Source of the DNA: Eubacteriales bacterium
GTDB lineage: Bacteria; Bacillota; Clostridia; Oscillospirales; CAG-272
Assembly (NCBI GenBank): GCA_045593725.1
Contig: JAZNXE010000026.1
Coordinates: 20,646-84,645, forward strand
Reading direction: 5' to 3'
DNA length: 64,000 bases
The notes below the pieces were generated by a model. That model made no database searches, had not been told where the DNA came from, and saw nothing but the letters and a program-made list of their open reading frames with translations. Positions 14,751 through 51,045 of this stretch are shown in pieces; positions within the stretch are counted from its first letter, which is position 1; the number at the start of each line of letters is the position of its first letter. The position numbers and the translations under genes were made by a program.

Positions 14751-14905
14751 AAAACCGCACGGAAATCTCCGTGCGGTAAATTCTTCATCTTCGGTATCTC
14801 GAGCTACCAAATTGAAATCATCTCCCTACGCCGGCATTATCCGTATCAGGTTAAAGGGTTCGGCTCTCGCCATCTCAGCCATAATGGGCACCCCCGACTT
14901 CTATG
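14751..14905 (-). promoter_or_regulatory. TPP (THI-box) riboswitch with terminator expression platform
   Basis: The minus strand reads GGGGTGCCCATTATGGCTGAGATGG...ACCCTTTAACCTGATACGGATAATGCCGGCGTAGGGA. This is followed by the terminator ACCGCACGGAgatTTCCGTGCGGTTTTT (14751-14778). Confidence 0.92.
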
Positions 14906-35478: not shown

Positions 35479-35506
35479 AAAGCAATCCTCTTTTTGTTGG
35501 TGGGGG
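35454..35506. repeat. Perfect 25-bp-stem palindrome (CCCCCACCAACAAAAAGAGGATTGC-aaa-GCAATCCTCTTTTTGTTGGTGGGGG)
   Basis: I read it directly from the sequence. The right arm includes the last 9 nt of tRNA-Tyr (..CCCCCACCA on the minus strand). The inner part acts as the tRNA operon terminator. Confidence 0.9.
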
Positions 35507-35582
35507 ATGGTGGATTCGGACCACCGAAGTCAGTGACAACAGATTTACAGTCTGCCCCCTTTGGCCGCTCGGGAAATCCCCC
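35498..35582 (-). tRNA. tRNA-Tyr (anticodon GTA), CCA encoded
   Basis: The minus strand reads GGGGGATTTCCCGAGCGGCCAAAGGGGGCAGACTGTAAATCTGTTGTCACTGACTTCGGTGGTCCGAATCCACCATCCCCCACCA. It has a 7-bp acceptor stem, a long variable arm and the anticodon loop CU-GUA-AA. Confidence 0.92.
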
Positions 35583-35613
35583 ATATTTCAGGCTCCGTTG
35601 TGTGGAGCCTTTT

Positions 35614-35688
35614 TGGAGCTGGTGATCGGAGTCGAACCAACAACCTGCTGATTACAAATCAGCTGCTCTGCCATTGAGCCACACCAGC
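35614..35688 (-). tRNA. tRNA-Thr (anticodon TGT), CCA encoded
   Basis: The minus strand reads GCTGGTGTGGCTCAATGGCAGAGCAGCTGATTTGTAATCAGCAGGTTGTTGGTTCGACTCCGATCACCAGCTCCA. It folds as a cloverleaf with the anticodon loop UU-UGU-AA. Confidence 0.92.
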
Positions 35689-41507: not shown

Positions 41508-41587
41508 TATAATATCTCCTTTCAAGTCAAACTTACAGTTTTCCTATGAAATTATGATATCATATTTCAGAGGATTTGTCAATAGCT

Positions 41588-42082
41588 TTATCTCTGGGGC
41601 TTGTCAAAGCCGTGTATAAATCCCTTTACGTCTGCCGAGCATATATCTCCGCCTATTACCTTGTTTCTATAAACAATAATATTGGCATATACCTTACCCT
41701 CCTCGCCCTCGTAGTTGCTTATCTCGTAGGTGTATCGGGTAACGTTTTTATTTTTATATTTAGAGAGGTCGAGTCCCTGACGCTTCTGTATCTCGTTGTA
41801 GCCCGTAAATATCTTGTCAAACTCCTTAGGAATAGTTATATCTGCCGTTTCAACAGGGTCGCCGCTTACCTTCCAGCCAAACTGAGCAAGAAAATCAATC
41901 CTGTCCTGATTGGTCTTTATTTTGTCATAGCTTATCTCCTTTTCGCTTCCCGTCGTTATGTAGCTCAGCTCCCCTCCGTCATACCCCGGAATAAAGGCTA
42001 TCATAGCTATAAGCGCCGTCAGCGCCACGCATACGACGGCAAAAAATTTCAACGTGCTGGCGCGAAGTGAATATACAAACAT
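41588..42082 (-). CDS. DUF4830-type protein (N-terminal TM anchor)
   Basis: The segment RIDFLAQFGWKVSGDPVETADITIPKEFDKIFTGYNEIQKRQGLDLSKYK matches my memory of DUF4830. The start at 42082 sits behind GGAGGA. Confidence 0.6.
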   Translation of the reverse strand: MFVYSLRASTLKFFAVVCVALTALIAMIAFIPGYDGGELSYITTGSEKEISYDKIKTNQDRIDFLAQFGWKVSGDPVETADITIPKEFDKIFTGYNEIQKRQGLDLSKYKNKNVTRYTYEISNYEGEEGKVYANIIVYRNKVIGGDICSADVKGFIHGFDKPQR

Positions 42083-42253: not shown

Positions 42254-44884
42254 ATGAAATGGACGTCACTTAACGACCTTCGGGAAAAGTATCTTTCATT
42301 TTTTGAATCAAAGGGACACTTAAGACTCCCCTCTTTCCCCTTGGTACCTATAAATGACAAATCTCTTCTTCTTATAAACTCGGGTATGGCACCTATGAAG
42401 AAATACTTCACAGGAGAGGAAATACCTCCCCGCAACAGAGTTACCACCTGCCAGAAGTGCATCCGTACCCCCGACCTTGAGCGCGTGGGACCCACAGCAA
42501 GACCCGGCACGTTCTTTGAGATGCTTGGAAACTTCTCTTTCGGTGATTACTTTAAGGACGAGGCTATTCCGTGGGCTTGGGAGTTCCTTACCCAGTGGTT
42601 GGAAATACCCGCGGACCTTCTCTGGCCCTCTATATACGAGAACGACGAGGAGGCATACGTTATCTGGCGCGACAAGATAGGCGTTCCCGAGGAGCATATC
42701 GTTCGTCTTGGCAAGGCTGATAACTTCTGGGAGCACGGCTCAGGTCCCTGCGGTCCCTGCTCCGAGATTTACTTCGACAGAGGTATAAAGTACGGCTGCG
42801 GCTCTCCCGACTGTAAGCCCGGATGCGACTGCGACAGATTTATGGAGATATGGAACAACGTATTCTCCCAGTTCAATAACGACGGCAACGGAAACTACAC
42901 CGAGCTTGCTCAGAAGAACATAGATACGGGTATGGGCCTTGAGCGTCTTGCTTGCGTAATGCAGGGCGTTGACAATATGTTCGAGGTAGATACCATACGC
43001 AAGGTAATAGACAAGGTTTGCGAGATTTCGGGCAAGACCTACGGCAATGACGCCGACAACGACATTTCAATCCGTGTTATCACCGACCACTCCAGAAGCG
43101 CTATGTTTATGATATCCGACGGAGTTATCCCCTCCAACGAGGGTCGCGGATACGTGCTCCGAAGAATTATCCGCCGCGCTTGCCGCCACGGAAAGCTGCT
43201 GGGTATCGACCATCCCTTCCTTGTAGAAACCGTAACCACCTCTATTGAGGAGAGCAAGGGCGCATATCCCGAGCTTGACGAAAAGAGAGATTATATCCTC
43301 AAGGTCATCTCTATGGAGGAGGATCGCTTCGACGCGACTATCGACGCGGGTCTTTCAATTCTCTCCGACCTTATCCGCGGCGCGCTGGCTGACAACGCTG
43401 ACGTAATTTCGGGCGAGGAGGTATTCAAGCTTTACGATACCTTTGGATTCCCCATAGACCTCACCCGTGAGATAGCGGCTGAGAGTCACCTCAATATTGA
43501 CGAGGACACCTTTGCTTCTCTTATGACCGCGCAGAAGAAGCGCGCAAGAGAGGCAAGAGCAAATATCGGCGGTTGGGACGAGTCCTCAAAATCCCTCCTT
43601 TCAGACCTTCCTAAGACCGAGTTTACGGGATATACCGACTACAAGAGCGAGGCAAAGGTTATTGCTATACTTACCGACGCGGGAAGCGTGGACGAGATAA
43701 ACGAGGGCGACTGCTCCATAGTTCTTGACCGTACCCCCTTCTACGGAGAGGGCGGCGGACAGATAGGCGACACGGGTACTATCTACAACGACGGATTTAT
43801 TGCTAGGGTCTATGACACAAAGAAGACCGACGGAGTATATATACACATCTGTACCGTAGCTAACGGCTCGGTAAAGGTGGGCGACACCGTAAGCGCAGAT
43901 ATAGAGGATGCAAGACGTATGGCTATCTGCCGCAATCACTCTGCGGCTCACCTGCTTCAGGCGGCTCTCCGCAGCGTTCTGGGCAGCCACGTTGAGCAGG
44001 CAGGCTCTTACGTCAGCGAGGACGTATGCCGCTTTGACTTCACGCACTTTGCGGCACTCACATCCGATGAGATAGCAAGAGTTGAAACTCTTGTTAACGC
44101 AAATATCCTTGTTGCCAACGACATAGTTACTATGGAAACAGATATAGAAACCGCAAAGAAGCACGGAGCTATGGCGCTCTTTGGAGAGAAGTACGGCAAT
44201 ACCGTCCGTATGGTCAAGATGGGCAGCTTCTCCACCGAGCTTTGCGGAGGAACTCACTGTAAAAACACGGGCAATATCGGTCTGTTCAAGATAGTATCCG
44301 AGAGCAGTGTGGCCGCAGGCGTGCGCCGTATCGAGGCTGTAACAGGAACGGGAGTTCTCAAGCTTATCGCTGATAAGGATGCGCTTATCGCGGACACTGC
44401 CGCAGAGCTTAAGGCGCAGAATCCTATGGACATCGCAAAAAGAGCCGCTCAGCTCCAGACCGAGCTCCACACGGCAAAGAGAGATATAGACGCGCTCAAC
44501 TCTAAGCTGGCTTCCTCGAAGCTTGGTGATATTCTGGCATCGGCAAAGGCGATAGGCTCTGTAAGGCTCATAGCAAGTAAGCTCTCCGATATGGCAATAG
44601 ACGCGGCAAGAACACTTGCTGACGATATAAAGGCTAATAACCCCGACGCGGTAGCAATTCTCGCGGTTGCAAACGCTGACAAGCTCAACTTTATCGCGGT
44701 TGCGGGTAAGGATGCCGTAAGCGCAGGCGCGCACGCAGGAAAGCTTGTTGGAGCGGTAGCAGCAGCCACAGGCGGAAAGGGCGGCGGACGTCCCGACAGC
44801 GCAATGGCAGGCGGTAAGGATGCGTCAAAGATAGACGAGGCACTTGCTCTTGCAGAAGGCACTCTTGCTTCTATGCTTAAGTAA
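42254..44884 (+). CDS. alaS: Alanine--tRNA ligase
   Basis: It starts MKWTSLNDLREKYLSFFESKGH and has an editing-domain HxxxH (HSAAHLL) and a C-terminal DHHA1 domain. It is 876 aa long. Confidence 0.95.
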   Translation: MKWTSLNDLREKYLSFFESKGHLRLPSFPLVPINDKSLLLINSGMAPMKKYFTGEEIPPRNRVTTCQKCIRTPDLERVGPTARPGTFFEMLGNFSFGDYFKDEAIPWAWEFLTQWLEIPADLLWPSIYENDEEAYVIWRDKIGVPEEHIVRLGKADNFWEHGSGPCGPCSEIYFDRGIKYGCGSPDCKPGCDCDRFMEIWNNVFSQFNNDGNGNYTELAQKNIDTGMGLERLACVMQGVDNMFEVDTIRKVIDKVCEISGKTYGNDADNDISIRVITDHSRSAMFMISDGVIPSNEGRGYVLRRIIRRACRHGKLLGIDHPFLVETVTTSIEESKGAYPELDEKRDYILKVISMEEDRFDATIDAGLSILSDLIRGALADNADVISGEEVFKLYDTFGFPIDLTREIAAESHLNIDEDTFASLMTAQKKRAREARANIGGWDESSKSLLSDLPKTEFTGYTDYKSEAKVIAILTDAGSVDEINEGDCSIVLDRTPFYGEGGGQIGDTGTIYNDGFIARVYDTKKTDGVYIHICTVANGSVKVGDTVSADIEDARRMAICRNHSAAHLLQAALRSVLGSHVEQAGSYVSEDVCRFDFTHFAALTSDEIARVETLVNANILVANDIVTMETDIETAKKHGAMALFGEKYGNTVRMVKMGSFSTELCGGTHCKNTGNIGLFKIVSESSVAAGVRRIEAVTGTGVLKLIADKDALIADTAAELKAQNPMDIAKRAAQLQTELHTAKRDIDALNSKLASSKLGDILASAKAIGSVRLIASKLSDMAIDAARTLADDIKANNPDAVAILAVANADKLNFIAVAGKDAVSAGAHAGKLVGAVAAATGGKGGGRPDSAMAGGKDASKIDEALALAEGTLASMLK

Positions 44885-44898
44885 AAATAAACGCGCTA

Positions 44899-44934
44899 AG
44901 CGCGGTCACAAACGTGACCGCGCTTTTGTTATTT
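44899..44934 (+). terminator. Intrinsic terminator of alaS
   Basis: AGCGCGGTCAC-aaac-GTGACCGCGCT followed by TTTGTTATTT. Confidence 0.8.
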
Positions 44935-44943
44935 AAAAAGTAC

Positions 44944-44971
44944 TTTACAACTCCAAAAAAGTGTGATATAA
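44944..44971 (+). promoter_or_regulatory. Promoter of the LRR-protein gene (TTTACA-16-TGaTATAAT, extended -10)
   Basis: It reads TTTACAactccaaaaaagtgTGaTATAAT. The predicted TSS at about 44978 coincides with the base of the leader hairpin. Confidence 0.6.
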
Positions 44972-44977
44972 TTGGGT

Positions 44978-45105
44978 TGCAACATAAATCTAATATTTTA
45001 TCTAATAATAAAGGTGTGTATTTTTATTTTGGTAAAAATGCAGACTCCCTTTTTGACGCACCTTTATTAGATAAAACGTACGCTAAAAAGTAGATTTATG
45101 TTGCA
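44978..45105 (+). promoter_or_regulatory. 128-nt leader hairpin (a 15-bp perfect outer stem, an inner stem of about 20 bp with G-U pairs, and a 38-nt loop)
   Basis: The outer stem pairs TGCAACATAAATCTA (44978-44992) with TAGATTTATGTTGCA (45091-45105). The inner stem pairs 44996-45018 with 45057-45076, with a 3-nt bulge and one U-G pair that is compatible only with plus-strand RNA. Confidence 0.6.
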
Positions 45106-45128
45106 GTAAACGGAGCTATGCATTTTTC

Positions 45129-45160
45129 ATGCGCAGCTTCGTGCTGCGCATTTTTTATTT
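45129..45160 (+). terminator. Leader (attenuator-type) intrinsic terminator 20 nt upstream of the LRR gene start
   Basis: ATGCGCAGC-ttcgt-GCTGCGCAT followed by TTTTTATTT. The AGGAGGA RBS at 45167-45173 comes next. Confidence 0.7.
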
Positions 45161-45179
45161 ATCATCAGGAGGACAGAAA

Positions 45180-47249
45180 ATGAAAAGAGTTTTGGCGTGT
45201 ATTTTGGTGGCAATTATGATATTACCCCTTTTTGCTTCGTGTAATAAGGATGATGACAGCACAACGGGTACTACCGCCGCCACAAAGCAAACCTCGAATA
45301 CCGAGCAAAATAAGCCCGATAACGAGGAAAACGACAACAACGAGAACAACAAGGAAAACGAAGATAATTCAGACGAGGAAGAAAACGAGGAAAATAAAAC
45401 TCCCGAAATAGACGTTAGCCATCTTCCCGAAAGCTCAGAGGGCTTAGAGTTTGAATTAAACGACGACGGCAAAGGATATACCGTTACGGGAATTGGAACT
45501 TGCACAGATACAGAAATAGTTATCGGTAAATATAACAACTTGCCTGTTACCAGCATTGGAGGGCGTGCGTTCGAGGATTGCACAAGCCTTACCGGTATAA
45601 CCATATCCGACAGCGTCACGAGCATTGGAGATTGTGCGTTCTACAATACAGCATACTATAACAATGAATCAAATTGGGATAACGGTGTGTTGTATATTGG
45701 AAATCATTTGATAAAGGCAAAGGAAACTATATCGGGTGCATATACGGTAAAAGAAGGAACTAAAACTATTGCAGATTATGCGTTCTACGAGTGCACAGGA
45801 CTTACGAGTATAACTATACCCGACAGCGTTACGAGCATTGGAACCGTTGCGTTCGACCAGTGCACAGGACTTGAGCAAGTGCATATAAATGATATATCAA
45901 GTTGGTGTAATATTGAATTTAAATACGGTAATCCTCTCTATTACGCTAACAAATTGTATCTCAAAGGAGAACTTGTTACAAATTTGATAATACCCAACAG
46001 CGTTACCAGCATTGGAGATTATGCGTTCTACTGGTGCACAGGACTTACAAGTGTAACAATAGGCAATAGCGTCACGAGCATTGGAGATTATGCGTTCGAC
46101 CAGTGCACAGGACTTATGAGTGTAACGATAGGCAATAGCGTCACGAGCATTGGAGATTGTGCGTTCAGAGGTTGCACAGAACTTACGAGTGTAACCATAC
46201 CCGACAGCGTTACGAGCATTGGAACTGGTGCGTTCGAAGTTTGCACAGGACTTACGAGTATAACTATACCCGACGGCATCACCAGCATTGGAGATTATGC
46301 GTTCTCCAGTTGCACAGGACTTACGAGTATAACCGTATCTGAAGGAAATAGCGTTTATCACGGTAAGGGTAATTGTTTAATAGAAACTGCTACAAAAACT
46401 CTGATATCAGGCTGTAAAACGAGCGTAATCCCCACAGACGGAAGCGTTACCAGAATTGGAGCTGGAGCGTTCTGGGGTTGCGACGGACTTACCAGTATAA
46501 CTATACCCAACAGCGTTACGAGCATTGGAGAGTGGGTGTTCGCAAATTGCACAGGACTTACGAGTATAACTATACCCGACAGTGTCACGAGCATTGGAGG
46601 TAGTGCGTTCGGCCAGTGCTACGGACTTACGAGTATAACTATCCCCAACAGCGTTACGAGCATTGGAGATTATGCGTTCTACGGTTGCACAGGACTTACG
46701 AGTATAACTATACCCAACAGCGTTACAAGCATTGGATATTATGCATTCAAAGATACAGCATACTATAACAACGAATCAAATTGGGATAACGGTGTGTTGT
46801 ATATTGGAAACCATTTGATAGAGGCAAAGAAAACTATATCGGGTGCATATACGGTAAAACAAGGAACTAAAACTATTGCAGGTGCTGCGTTCGGGGGTTG
46901 CACAGGACTTACGAGTATAACTATACCCGACAGCGTTACGAGCATTGGAGTTTATGCGTTCGCCTTATGCACAGGACTTACAAGTATAACTATACCGGAC
47001 AGCGTAACGAGCATTGGAGAGTGGGCGTTCTCCAGTTGCACAGGACTTACGAGTGTAACCATACCCGACAGCATCACCAGCATTGGAGATTGTGCGTTCT
47101 GGGATTGCACAGGACTTACTACGATAAACTTCCAAGGCACAAAGGCAGAGTGGGAAACCATTGAAAAGGGGAGTTCTTGGAACAGCGGAACTGACAACTA
47201 CACTGTAAAATGCACCGACGGCGATATTGCCAAGGCGGATGATAATTAA
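45180..47249 (+). CDS. BspA-type leucine-rich-repeat (LRR_5-like) surface lipoprotein, 689 aa
   Basis: It has a lipobox (LFASC) and an acidic Asn/Glu/Asp linker. About 20 repeat units follow, of the form I(T/P)IPxSVTSIGxxAFxxCTGLTS. Confidence 0.85.
45646..45774 (+). repeat. Intragenic 129-bp duplication, copy 1 (124 of 129 identical to 46753-46881)
   Basis: I compared the two directly. Both encode [39 protein letters not shown]. Confidence 0.9.
46753..46881 (+). repeat. Intragenic 129-bp duplication, copy 2
   Basis: See copy 1. The offset is 1107 bp, which is in frame. Confidence 0.9.
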
Positions 47250-47270: not shown

Positions 47271-47683
47271 GATCCTGACAGCGTTGCTGTCGCGCTACGC
47301 GTTCGACTACGCCCCGCCCGTGTCATTCTGAGTGAAGCGAAGCGAAATCGAACCCGAACGCAGTGAGGGCGCGTAAGCGGAATCTCGGCGGGGCTACGCT
47401 CAGGATGACATTATAAAAGCGAGGCACCGAATTGGTGCCTCGTTTTCTTTCATAGGACAAAACCTCGAAAACAATATTAAGCTCTGTAGGGACAGGCGTC
47501 CTCTACAATTTTTGTGCGCAAGCCCTATTTAAGCGGGTCATCCTGAGCGAAACGGCGAGATATTATTGCCGTTGTGACACATAATAAAAACCGCCGTGAA
47601 GTCGAACCTTTGCGAAGCGTGGTAGCGAAGCAAAGGCGTGAAGCGAAGCGAAACGGGATCTCCTGACAGCTTTGCTCTGTCGG
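47271..47683. repeat. Cluster of REP-like GC-rich palindromic repeat modules in a 690-bp noncoding gap
   Basis: GTCATYCTGAGYG occurs at 47322 (+) and 47537 (+), and inverted at 47399-47410. GTGAAGCGAAGCGAAA occurs at 47332-47347 and 47638-47653. The GATC(TC)CTGACAGC hairpins lie at 47271-47292 and 47657-47683. Confidence 0.75.
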
Positions 47684-47886
47684 GTAGGTCGTGGCGTAAA
47701 AAAATAACGTTTATGGGCCTTGCTCCTCCCGCCTTTTTATACTTTTTTTGAACGGGAACACCAAGGCGCTCCCCTACCGCACGAAAGAAGAAAATGCGAA
47801 CATAGCTTTTCGCACCATTTGTCCATACGAGGTAATATATACCCGAGAACATCGCTTAACCTAAGGCTTTCTCTGCGTGAAAGCCT

Positions 47887-50265: not shown

Positions 50266-51045
50266 ATGAGAAAAGCAATTAAAATATTGATAGCAGACGA
50301 AAACGCATCCGACCGTCAGGCACTGTGTGCGGAGCTTCGCAAGGCGGGATTTACAAATCTTCTTGAAGCAGGAAACGGAGAGGAGGCTCTTATACAAATA
50401 GGCAAAAACCATCCCGACGTAGCCATAATAGACGTGTGGCTGTCAAAGCTGGACGGAATAGGAGTACTCAATAACTGTCAAAATATCAAATTTGCCCCCG
50501 ATAAGCCTCCCGCATTTATAGTAGTATCTATGGTATCCAAGCAAAGCATATTTGTTGAGGCTACAAATTCAGGAGCAGACCTCTGCCTACTTAAGCCTTA
50601 CAACGTAGAAAGCCTTTGTAGGCATATCAATTCCCTTGCCAAGACACGGGACGGAGAAACAGTAGCCGCACCTGAGGACGAAAGCGTTCCCGATATGGAA
50701 TCACAGGTAACAAAGATAATCCACCAGATAGGTGTTCCCGCGCACATAAAGGGATATCAGTATCTACGTACAGCCATTCTCCTTACTATAAAGGACAGCG
50801 ATATTATAAACAGCGTTACCAAAATTCTCTACCCCAGCGTGGCAAAGCAGTATCAGACCACAACCAGCCGAGTTGAGCGCGCCATCCGTCACGCCATCGA
50901 GGTAGCATGGGATAGAGGCGACGTGGATACCCTCAATTCCTATTTTGGTTATACCATTCAAAACAACAGAGGTAAGCCCACAAATAGTGAGTTTATTGCA
51001 ATGATAGCTGATAATTTGAGGCTGAAATATAAGATGTATAAATAA
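50266..51045 (+). CDS. spo0A: Sporulation master regulator Spo0A
   Basis: It has a receiver domain and the signature Spo0A C-terminal domain ([20 protein letters not shown]...[18 protein letters not shown]...[13 protein letters not shown]). Confidence 0.95.

What the first reader, a model, noticed from the sequence alone, without database searches (positions are those of the whole stretch)
44944..45179. Riboswitch-like architecture upstream of the LRR adhesin gene: promoter, 128-nt hairpin starting at +1, intrinsic terminator, RBS
A strong extended -10 promoter (TTTACA-16-TGaTATAAT) places the TSS at about 44978, exactly at the base of a long imperfect hairpin. Its outer stem is 15 bp and perfect, its inner stem is about 20 bp, and its loop is 38 nt. 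The imperfections in the stem are U-G pairs on the plus-strand RNA and would be A-C mismatches on the other strand, which favours an RNA structure over a DNA inverted repeat. Twenty-three nt later lies a canonical terminator (9-bp GC stem plus a U tract, 45129-45160), immediately before the AGGAGGA RBS. The hairpin loop contains AAAAATGCAG, which partly mimics the terminator's left arm (..CATGCGCAG). It could therefore pair with the right arm and U tract as an antiterminator. I do not recognise any Rfam aptamer here (not c-di-GMP-I/II, TPP, SAM, purine or T-box). One alternative is that the 15-bp inverted repeats are recombinase sites of a cwpV-like invertible switch placed between the promoter and a surface-protein gene.
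Basis: partly seen in the sequence, partly recalled or inferred. Interest (0 to 1): 0.6.

Follow-up and report, generated by a model that had tools for sequence, protein, structure and literature searches.

The report
Conserved terminator-switch leader RNA, effector unknown
The stretch in front of the surface-protein gene is a real, evolutionarily conserved folded leader RNA that can switch between a "stop" and a "read-through" shape; it belongs to a family absent from the RNA-family library, found in uncultured gut Clostridia, and its trigger is unknown.

Summary
The fold is far stronger than shuffles (z = -6).

It is not a one-off. I found 22 distinct homologous leaders in about 10 lineages of uncultured gut Clostridia. 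All have the same promoter-to-hairpin spacing and the same orientation. On a model-fitted alignment, 91% of cells are paired and 47 of 68 pairs show compensatory changes.

Three mutually exclusive helices are kept in every lineage examined:
- The hairpin's terminal loop (45034-45048) pairs with the segment just upstream of the terminator (45112-45127).
- That segment alternatively pairs with the terminator's left arm, forming an antiterminator (45106-45147).
- The terminator itself (45129-45151).

This is a transcription attenuator with a loop-to-tail pseudoknot acting as anti-antiterminator. No Rfam family matches it.

Downstream genes are mixed: BspA-type LRR lipoproteins, an uncharacterised small Cys-rich protein family, and small membrane proteins or lipoproteins. 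The effector therefore cannot be inferred.

The invertible-switch alternative is disfavoured. No inverted copy was seen, the stems vary in sequence and use G-U pairs, and no recombinase lies nearby.

Verdict: a new family within a known kind of regulator. Whether a ligand binds is untested.

The parts
44898..44935 (+). Intrinsic terminator of the upstream alaS gene (42254-44884). It insulates the leader from upstream transcription.
   Evidence: 12-bp stem with 8 G-C pairs plus a T run. AlaRS domains were identified.
44944..44972 (+). Sigma-A-type promoter: -35 TTTACA (44944-44949), 17-nt spacer, TG-extended -10 TGATATAAT (44964-44972). The predicted TSS is about 44979, the second base of the outer stem.
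   Evidence: One search gives 11 of 12 matches with TG present. A -10 box ends 5-6 nt before the first stem base in 16 of the 18 copies printed; in the other two a variant -10 missed by the search expression sits at the same place, read by eye.
44978..44992 (+). P1, 5' strand (outer stem, TGCAACATAAATCTA).
   Evidence: In the family, P1 is 96% paired and 9 of 15 pairs show compensatory changes. The sister locus L094 has A-U changed to G-C at one pair.
44996..45019 (+). Inner stem, 5' strand. It corresponds to P2/P3 of the family.
   Evidence: (repeats I5, I6) and the MFE fold. In the family, P3 has 13 of 13 pairs and P2 has 8 of 8 pairs with compensatory changes.
45020..45055 (+). Terminal loop. 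It contains the U-rich run plus GGU (45021-45033), which can form a weak local hairpin with the A run, and segment 1.
   Evidence: TTTGG(T/C/A)AAAAA is the most conserved sequence block of the family.
45034..45048 (+). Segment 1 (AAAAAUGCAGACUCC). It pairs with segment 2 as a pseudoknot that acts as anti-antiterminator.
   Evidence: repeat I3. The duplex is 13 bp at -14.9 kcal/mol, z = -3.8 against shuffles. In a hand alignment, 5 of 14 positions covary among 8 variants.
45056..45076 (+). Inner stem, 3' strand.
45077..45090 (+). Asymmetric internal loop (14 nt, opposite 3 nt at 44993-44995). It is a possible hinge that lets the hairpin tip fold back toward segment 2.
   Evidence: The position comes from the MFE fold. 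The hinge role is inference only.
45091..45105 (+). P1, 3' strand (TAGATTTATGTTGCA).
45112..45127 (+). Segment 2 (GGAGCUAUGCAUUUUU), the pivot of the switch. It is complementary both to segment 1 and to the terminator's left arm.
   Evidence: repeats I3 and D7.
45106..45147 (+). Antiterminator hairpin: 45110-45117 pairs with 45135-45142, and 45119-45123 pairs with 45129-45133. It is mutually exclusive with the terminator.
   Evidence: It is the MFE form of the window tail, -18.1 against -15.1 kcal/mol for the terminator alone. An equivalent hairpin is predicted in all 8 tails examined and in the RNAalifold consensus of 8 type-B leaders.
45129..45156 (+). Intrinsic terminator: stem AUGCGCAGC / GCUGCGCAU, loop UUCGU, then a U run.
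   Evidence: In the family the terminator helices are 98-99% paired, and 8 of 11 pairs show compensatory changes.
45167..45173 (+). Ribosome-binding site AGGAGGA, 10 nt after the U run. There is no room for a second promoter.
   Evidence: The same layout appears in most copies printed.
45180..47249 (+). Regulated gene: a 689-aa lipoprotein (lipobox LFASC) with BspA-type leucine-rich repeats.

Best explanation
This is a cis-acting transcription attenuator in the 5' leader of the LRR-lipoprotein mRNA.

Transcription starts at the base of a long hairpin (P1 to P3), which displays segment 1 in its terminal loop. Three helices then compete:
1. Segment 1 (45034-45048) with segment 2 (45112-45127), a loop-to-tail pseudoknot.
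2. Segment 2 with the terminator's left arm and loop, forming the antiterminator (45106-45147).
3. The terminator (45129-45151).

When segment 2 is captured by the loop, the terminator forms and transcription stops before the RBS (OFF). When the loop is unavailable or the pseudoknot is not formed, segment 2 pairs with the terminator's left arm and RNA polymerase reads into the gene (ON).

Segment 1 is made before the terminator's left arm, so the likely default is OFF. An unknown effector acting on the conserved terminal-loop region would then shift the balance. That effector could be a small molecule, a protein or another RNA.

What is shown: the parts, their conservation, their covariation and their mutual exclusivity. 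What is inferred: the direction of the switch, the default state and the existence of an effector.
For: Recurrence:
- The unit recurs as 22 distinct sequences in about 10 lineages.
- Some were found through a loop-motif scan. Others were found independently of it, through downstream proteins: L101, L104, L114, L126-L135 and the two copies in L136.

Constant geometry:
- A -10 box ends 5-6 nt before P1 in 16 of the 18 copies printed; the other two carry a variant -10 at the same place, read by eye.
- The terminator U run is followed within about 8-25 nt by RBS and start codon in most copies.

Covariation on the model-fitted alignment A7:
- 90.7% of cells are paired, against 72.7% in shuffles and 36-50% when partners are slid.
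- 47 of 68 pairs have changes on both sides, and 0 of 500 shuffles reach any of the five measures.
- Per helix: P3 13 of 13, P2 8 of 8, P1 9 of 15, terminator 8 of 11.

Pseudoknot (hand alignment):
- 13-16 bp and -14.9 to -19.4 kcal/mol in all 12 variants, z = -3.6 to -8.2.
- Quite different sequences keep the pairing. Examples: AAAAAGUACAAGUUUC with GGGGCUUGUGCUUUUU in the second L136 copy, UUUCC with GGAAA in L114, and AAAAACGUA with UACGUUUUU in L101.

Antiterminator:
- It is predicted in all 8 tails examined (-10 to -20 kcal/mol).
- It is the RNAalifold consensus of 8 type-B leaders.
- It is close in energy to the terminator, as expected for a switch.

Strand:
- The + strand is more stable in 12 of 14 hairpins.
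- G-U pairs are frequent in the helices.

The alaS terminator upstream, together with the lack of room for a promoter after the leader terminator, makes read-through the only route to LRR expression.
Against: - There is no transcript or termination data of any kind.
- No effector can be named. Downstream genes are heterogeneous, and the small Cys-rich family has no match in Pfam, NCBIfam, PHROGs or the PDB.
- The loop sequence is not strictly conserved (L101 and the second L136 copy), which is unusual for a metabolite aptamer.
- Geometry is a concern. Segment 2 starts only 6 nt after the base of a roughly 40-bp hairpin whose tip carries segment 1, so the pseudoknot needs a sharp fold-back at the internal loop. 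That is plausible but untested.
- The covariation counts come from an alignment fitted to the model and from related sequences, so they lean toward the structure.
- The pseudoknot and antiterminator registers were aligned by hand.
- Half of the members were found with an exact loop motif, so conservation of that motif is partly by construction.
- Some related LRR genes and one orthologous locus (L099) lack the leader, so it is dispensable.
Confidence: 0.7

Rival explanations
1. A cwpV-like invertible DNA switch. The 15-bp inverted repeats would be recombinase sites, and flipping 44993-45090 would convert segment 1 into a copy of segment 2. That would abolish the pseudoknot and turn the gene ON.
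For: Perfect 15-bp inverted repeats lie between the promoter and a surface-protein gene. Inverting segment 1 would indeed give a segment-2-like sequence, so the logic is self-consistent. Recombinases for such switches can be encoded elsewhere in the genome (own knowledge of RecV and cwpV).
Against: - All 22 distinct copies, on more than 50 contigs from many samples, have the loop motif in the same orientation relative to promoter and terminator. The scans covered both strands.
- P1 sequences differ between lineages while pairing is kept, with G-U pairs.
- The internal helices P2 and P3 covary fully, which an invertible segment does not need.
- No recombinase domain was found in the ten neighbouring ORFs scanned between 38.7 and 52.2 kb. 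Three of those ORFs had no Pfam hit at all.
Confidence: 0.04
2. An independent small RNA gene of about 175 nt, with its own promoter and terminator, that acts in trans. The downstream gene would be expressed only by incidental read-through.
For: A strong promoter and an efficient-looking terminator bracket a highly structured RNA. The downstream genes are unrelated to each other, as would be expected if the RNA's job lies elsewhere.
Against: - In most copies the terminator is followed within about 8-25 nt by an RBS and start codon on the same strand, with no separate promoter for the gene.
- An antiterminator competing with the terminator is conserved and covaries. That has no purpose in a plain sRNA.
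- The two L136 units each pair one leader with one gene.
Confidence: 0.1
3. A non-sensing element: a portable promoter-plus-leader cassette, or a MITE-like palindrome, whose hairpin only stabilises the mRNA 5' end and whose terminator merely damps expression constitutively.
For: - The same type-B leader sits in front of unrelated genes and next to IS30, ISL3 and integrase-like ORFs. Those ORFs were identified by eye only.
- Two copies lie head-to-head in L090.
- There is a presence/absence polymorphism between L101 and L099.
- 5' hairpins starting at +1 are known mRNA stabilisers in Firmicutes (own knowledge).
Against: - Only one copy occurs in the 64-kb window, and only two relatives occur in about 1 Mb of related genomes, L080 and the reduced L041 variant.
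- No target-site duplication flanks P1.
- A stabiliser or constant damper does not explain three mutually exclusive, covarying helices of nearly equal energy.
Confidence: 0.12

Closest known systems
Bacillus subtilis pyr operon attenuators (PyrR binding loop as anti-antiterminator, then antiterminator, then terminator)
   Same: Three-tier logic. An upstream structure sequesters the 5' half of an antiterminator so that the terminator forms. The default and induced states are decided during transcription. (Own knowledge.)
   Different: Here the anti-antiterminator is not a local hairpin. It is a pseudoknot between the terminal loop of a hairpin of roughly 110-165 nt and the tail. There is no match to the PyrR binding-site family or any other Rfam model. 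No binding protein is known.
Pseudoknot riboswitches with transcriptional platforms (preQ1-I, ZTP, fluoride)
   Same: A hairpin loop pairs with a downstream strand that overlaps the expression platform. In the B. subtilis preQ1-I switch, pseudoknot formation removes antiterminator nucleotides and gives termination, which is the direction proposed here. (Own knowledge.)
   Different: The pseudoknot helix here is much longer (13-16 bp) and sits on a very long hairpin. Its sequence drifts between lineages rather than forming a fixed ligand pocket. There is no Rfam match and no coherent metabolic regulon.
cwpV phase-variation switch of Clostridioides difficile
   Same: Inverted repeats lie between a sigma-A promoter and a cell-surface protein gene. 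The outcome is decided by whether a terminator forms in the leader RNA.
   Different: No inverted copies were found, the repeats are variable, G-U pairs occur in the stems, and the interior helices covary. The evidence points to an RNA-level switch, not a DNA-level one.
c-di-GMP-I and c-di-GMP-II riboswitches upstream of clostridial adhesin and surface-protein genes
   Same: A leader with a terminator sits in front of surface proteins and other functionally mixed genes in Clostridia. (Own knowledge.)
   Different: There is no similarity to either aptamer (cmscan). Nothing here indicates a nucleotide second messenger.

Membership tests
Conditional-termination leader (attenuator or riboswitch-type expression platform) | A promoter immediately upstream, with the leader as the only route of transcription into the gene. 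| tested here: met
   Promoter at 44944-44972. The alaS terminator lies upstream. Only 10 nt separate the U run from the RBS. The promoter is conserved in the 18 copies printed.
Conditional-termination leader (attenuator or riboswitch-type expression platform) | An intrinsic terminator between the TSS and the RBS that is conserved in homologues. | tested here: met
   The family terminator helices are 98-99% paired, with 8 of 11 pairs covarying.
Conditional-termination leader (attenuator or riboswitch-type expression platform) | A mutually exclusive antiterminator that is conserved in homologues. | tested here: met
   It is the MFE form in the window, is predicted in all 8 tails examined, and is the RNAalifold consensus of 8 type-B leaders.
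Conditional-termination leader (attenuator or riboswitch-type expression platform) | A sensor domain supported by covariation. | tested here: met
   for P1, P2 and P3. for the loop-to-tail pseudoknot. The alignment was fitted to the model, and the pseudoknot was aligned by hand.
Conditional-termination leader (attenuator or riboswitch-type expression platform) | An effector that changes the termination frequency. | not testable with these tools
   This needs in vitro transcription, in-line probing or Term-seq.
Any described RNA family (Rfam 15: c-di-GMP-I/II, T-box, TPP, SAM, preQ1, PyrR site, ribosomal leaders and others) | A covariance-model score at or above the family's gathering threshold. 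| tested here: not met
   The best hit in the region is a miRNA model at 31.7 bits against a 140-bit threshold. Nothing was found on four other member loci at E <= 1, nor on 17 sources at gathering thresholds.
cwpV-like invertible DNA switch | Inverted repeats flanking a segment between promoter and ORF. | tested here: met
   A 15-bp perfect inverted repeat at 44978-44992 and 45091-45105.
cwpV-like invertible DNA switch | Both orientations present in natural populations. | tested here: not met
   None of 22 distinct copies is inverted. The pattern and model searches covered both strands. Assemblies can hide minority orientations, so raw reads remain to be checked.
cwpV-like invertible DNA switch | A site-specific recombinase and conserved recombination sites. 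| tested here: inconclusive
   No recombinase domain was found in the ten ORFs scanned between 38.7 and 52.2 kb, but one could be encoded elsewhere. Stem sequences differ between lineages apart from a shared UGCNACA base.
MITE or REP-like repeated palindrome | Many dispersed copies per genome, with target-site duplications. | tested here: not met
   One copy in the window. Only L080 and the reduced L041 variant were found in about 1 Mb of related genomes. No duplication flanks P1.

The most novel reading that the evidence does not exclude
This is a previously undescribed riboswitch class. Its sensor would be the terminal-loop and tail pseudoknot, possibly a U.A-U triple-helix pocket built from the conserved UUU, A5 and U5 runs. 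It would respond to a cellular signal and set the expression of surface LRR lipoproteins and a very large, uncharacterised family of small Cys-rich proteins in uncultured gut Clostridia.
Probability: 0.25. Interest if true: 0.8.

Novelty: new variant of a known kind. Interest (0 to 1): 0.6.

Why it matters
If the mechanism holds, this is a new family of conditional-termination leaders in abundant but uncultured animal-gut Clostridia.

- It has an unusual design. A long hairpin presents a decoy of the terminator's left arm in its loop.
- It ties together genes that currently have no annotation link: BspA-type LRR surface lipoproteins, a small Cys-rich protein family with more than 785 clusters, and small membrane proteins. 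That defines a putative regulon and gives a handle on their function.
- The switch is compact, and all its helices are now mapped. The hypothesis can therefore be tested directly with standard in vitro transcription and compensatory mutants.
- The covariance model can be used to harvest the full family and look for the effector.

Tried and rejected
- Exact-sequence look-ups of the window's LRR protein (two start choices) and AlaRS (two start choices) found nothing.
- BLASTN and nhmmer with the window leader alone found only L080 among the 80 alaS loci. The orthologous alaS-downstream position in other species does not carry the element.
- The loop-motif scan of viral contigs gave two false positives. 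Six of the 16 metagenome hits were also chance matches inside genes.
- LRR homologues P0002, P0006 and P0013 (loci L099, L100, L124, L125) have no leader. The element is therefore not a general feature of BspA-type genes.
- MAFFT alignments A1, A3 and A6 put stems and the pseudoknot out of register between lineages. I used the covariance-model alignments A5 and A7 for nested helices, and a hand alignment plus RNAduplex for the pseudoknot.
- The leader-peptide idea was rejected. The window has a small ORF (45118-45183) overlapping the LRR start, and a loop ATG, but neither is conserved. A 1-nt indel shifts the frame in type-B leaders.
- The T-box idea (a UGGU in the loop) was rejected. There is no T-box hit, and that loop sequence varies.
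- A function for the Cys-rich protein was sought in Pfam, NCBIfam, PHROGs and PDB sequences without result.
- Two literature searches found no description of this element.
- L041 was considered as a member. It shares only the tail and a palindrome that overlaps its promoter, so I treat it as a reduced relative.

Full report
**1. The observation**

- Promoter: TTTACA, 17 nt, TG-n-TATAAT at 44944-44972, with 11 of 12 consensus matches.
- Outer stem: a perfect 15-bp pairing of 44978-44992 with 45091-45105. It is unique in the window.
- Inner stem: 13 bp plus 14 bp around a 3-nt bulge, closing a loop of about 36 nt.
- Terminator: a 9-bp G+C-rich stem at 45129-45151 with a U run.
- Translation signals: AGGAGGA at 45167-45173 and ATG at 45180.

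The gene encodes a 689-aa lipoprotein with six BspA-type LRR_5 stretches. Upstream lies alaS, which has its own strong terminator at 44898-44925.

The leader folds at -62.9 kcal/mol, against -39.4 +/- 3.9 for shuffles (z = -6.05).

**2. It is a family, not a one-off**

Rfam has nothing here, or on any other member locus searched.

How the members were found:
- Among 80 alaS loci from related uncultured Clostridia or Eubacteriales MAGs, only L080 carried a related leader, and at a different genomic place. It had the same promoter, an outer stem of different sequence that still paired, and the same loop motif.
- A metagenome scan with that loop motif gave 10 more true members and 6 chance hits.
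- One member, L094, is the sister locus of the window, with the same alaS terminator upstream. It has one A-U pair changed to G-C in the outer stem, a different terminator and a different LRR gene.
- Further members were found through downstream proteins, independently of the motif: L101-L103, L104-L113, L114-L123, L126-L135 and two tandem copies in L136-L141.

In total there are 22 distinct sequences in about 10 lineages. The leaders come in a short form (window, L094, L081, L101) and a longer form with an extra branch (here called type B).

Shared layout:
- A -10 box ends 5-6 nt before the first stem base in 16 of the 18 copies printed. The other two carry a variant -10 at the same place, read by eye.
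- The terminator U run is followed within about 8-25 nt by an RBS and start codon in most copies.
- Every copy has the same orientation from promoter to terminator.

**3. Structure and covariation**

I built a covariance model (R1) and used it to align the 22 sequences (A7). Results:
- 90.7% of cells are standard pairs. Shuffles give 72.7%, and slid partners give 36-50%.
- 47 of 68 pairs have changes on both sides.
- 0 of 500 shuffles reach any of the five measures.
- Per helix: P1 has 9 of 15 pairs covarying (96% paired), P2 has 8 of 8, P3 has 13 of 13, and the terminator has 8 of 11.

G-U pairs are common, and the + strand hairpin is more stable than its complement in 12 of 14 cases. This favours RNA over DNA.

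One caveat applies. The alignment is fitted to the model and the sequences are related, so the counts lean toward the structure. The size of the effect, and the wholesale replacement of stem sequences between lineages, are nevertheless hard to explain otherwise.

**4. Three competing helices**

*Loop-to-tail pseudoknot.*
- The terminal-loop segment 1 (window 45034-45048) is complementary to segment 2 (45112-45127), which lies 6 nt after P1 (repeat I3).
- RNAduplex finds 13-16 bp and -14.9 to -19.4 kcal/mol in all 12 variants, with z = -3.6 to -8.2.
- The sequences differ strongly between lineages while staying complementary.

| Copy | Segment 1 | Segment 2 |
|---|---|---|
| Type B | AAAAAUGCG-ACUCC | GGAGU-U-CGCGUUUUU |
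| L114 | ...GCG-A-UUUCC | GGAAA-CGC... |
| L101 | AAAAACGUA-U-GCUCU | GGAGC-UACGUUUUU |
| L136, second copy | AAAAAGUACAAGUUUC | GGGGCUUGUGCUUUUU (four G-U pairs) |

- In a hand alignment of 8 variants, 97% of cells pair and 5 of 14 positions show compensatory changes.

*Antiterminator.*
- Segment 2, plus the linker before it, pairs with the 3' part of the terminator's left arm, its loop, and the first bases of its right arm. In the window this spans 45106-45147.
- It is the MFE form of the window tail.
- It is the RNAalifold consensus of the type-B leaders.
- It forms in all 8 tails examined when the last 7 nt of the terminator are withheld (-10 to -20 kcal/mol).
- Compensatory changes are seen. 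GGAGCU with AGCUUC becomes GGAGUU with GACUUC, and CAAC with GUUG becomes CUAU with GUAG.

*Terminator.* Antiterminator and terminator are close in energy. That is the signature of a switch.

**5. Mechanism**

The segments are made in the order 1, 2, left arm, right arm.
- Pairing of segments 1 and 2, together with the terminator, gives termination.
- Pairing of segment 2 with the left arm gives read-through.

Segment 1 already exists when segment 2 emerges, so I infer a default OFF state. I also infer an effector that acts on the terminal loop. The most conserved block there is UUUGG(U/C/A)AAAAA, which can also form a weak local hairpin that hides the A run.

It is not the pairing that forms first by order of synthesis.

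There is a geometric caveat. Segment 2 sits at the base of the long hairpin and segment 1 at its tip. The pseudoknot therefore needs a fold-back at the large asymmetric internal loop (45077-45090). The two arms on either side of that loop are of similar length in the lineages I inspected, which fits a fold-back. This is inference only.

**6. What it controls**

Downstream genes:
- BspA-type LRR lipoproteins (window, L094, L101).
- A small Cys-rich protein with the motif CLGNG..ECCCDECDYYLLCFPEF. This family has more than 785 clusters and no match in Pfam, NCBIfam, PHROGs or the PDB. It follows most type-B leaders, L114, L126-L135 and both L136 copies.
- A small lipoprotein followed by a SHOCT-domain protein (L081).
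- A zinc-ribbon membrane protein (L090).
- A membrane protein (L092).

No metabolic theme emerges, so the effector cannot be deduced. Several related LRR genes, and one orthologous locus (L099 compared with L101), lack the leader.

**7. Rival explanations**

*Invertible DNA switch.* The logic would work, because flipping turns segment 1 into a segment-2 look-alike. But no inverted copy exists among 22 distinct sequences from many samples. The stems vary and use G-U pairs, and the interior helices covary. No recombinase domain was found in the ten neighbouring ORFs scanned. I rate it about 4%.

*Independent sRNA.* This is contradicted by the fixed terminator-to-RBS junction and by the conserved antiterminator. 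I rate it about 10%.

*Portable, non-sensing cassette or stabiliser.* The cassette does move. It sits in front of unrelated genes, lies head-to-head in L090, and is near IS-like ORFs. But a constant damper does not need three covarying, equal-energy alternative helices. I rate it about 12%.

**8. Comparison with known systems and novelty**

The element works like the three-tier attenuators, such as the PyrR-controlled pyr leaders. It also works like pseudoknot riboswitches in which the pseudoknot strand overlaps the platform; preQ1-I has the same direction. It is not a member of any described RNA family, because the defining model scores are not met.

General descriptions of conditional terminators and riboswitch classes (abstracts of PMC5314783 and PMC10907184, listed) fit the kind but not this family.

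I classify it as a new variant of a known kind. It is a new leader family with an unusual long-range decoy loop. Ligand binding and regulation are untested.

**Scores**

- Interest: 0.6.
- Confidence in the attenuator explanation: 0.7.
- The most novel reading, a new riboswitch class: probability about 0.25, interest if true 0.8.

Noticed in passing
L084:31-106 and L084:262-337 (+): Two copies of the Gut-1 RNA motif (RF01706), each about 85 bits against a 50-bit threshold, lie about 140-450 nt upstream of a type-B leader. They were seen only in this locus.
   Followed up: partly
L114:2074-2235, L104:2078-2241, L080:534-632 (-), L049:10270-10367 (-): A conserved element of about 100-160 nt made of three hairpins (for example ACGGUAUAUCUCGAAAGAGGUAUGCCGU) sits just upstream of the leader promoter in three lineages. 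It also occurs alone, without a leader, in L049. It has no Rfam match and may be another undescribed RNA or a protein-binding region.
   Followed up: partly
L099:1420-1500 versus L101:1420-1640: These are the same locus (PBP gene, LRR lipoprotein, ABC transporter) with the same promoter. L099 lacks the whole leader and has instead a short hairpin that includes the -10 box. This is a natural presence/absence polymorphism. The gene caller's start for the L101 LRR gene (1501) lies inside the leader; the true ATG is at 1640.
   Followed up: partly
L090:1-176 (-) and L090:309-530 (+): Two leaders are arranged head-to-head with divergent promoters about 130 nt apart. The left one is cut by the contig end.
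   Followed up: no
L136:994-1431 and L136:1650-2077: A tandem duplication of leader plus Cys-rich gene. The two leaders have diverged strongly, especially in the pseudoknot strands, yet keep all helices.
   Followed up: yes
L041:13220-13323 (-): A reduced relative. It has segment 2, a terminator and an RBS, but no loop segment 1. A 17-bp palindrome overlaps the promoter spacer and -10 box, upstream of a small membrane protein gene.
   Followed up: partly
L080:140-170 (-): The Cys-rich ORF downstream of this leader is interrupted by a frameshift in an A7 run. This could be an assembly error or slipped-strand variation.
   Followed up: no
window:45118-45183 (+): A small ORF ([21 protein letters not shown]) starts inside segment 2 and runs through the terminator. 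Its TGA overlaps the LRR ATG. It is not conserved in other members.
   Followed up: partly
window:13655-14010 (-), 14806-14905 (-), 35501-35688 (-): An RNase P RNA (class A), a TPP riboswitch and two tRNA genes lie elsewhere in the window. Spo0A at 50266-51045 marks the organism as a spore-former.
   Followed up: no
window:41097-41549, 41576-42070 (+), 47538-47852 (-): Three ORFs flanking alaS and the LRR gene have no Pfam match.
   Followed up: no
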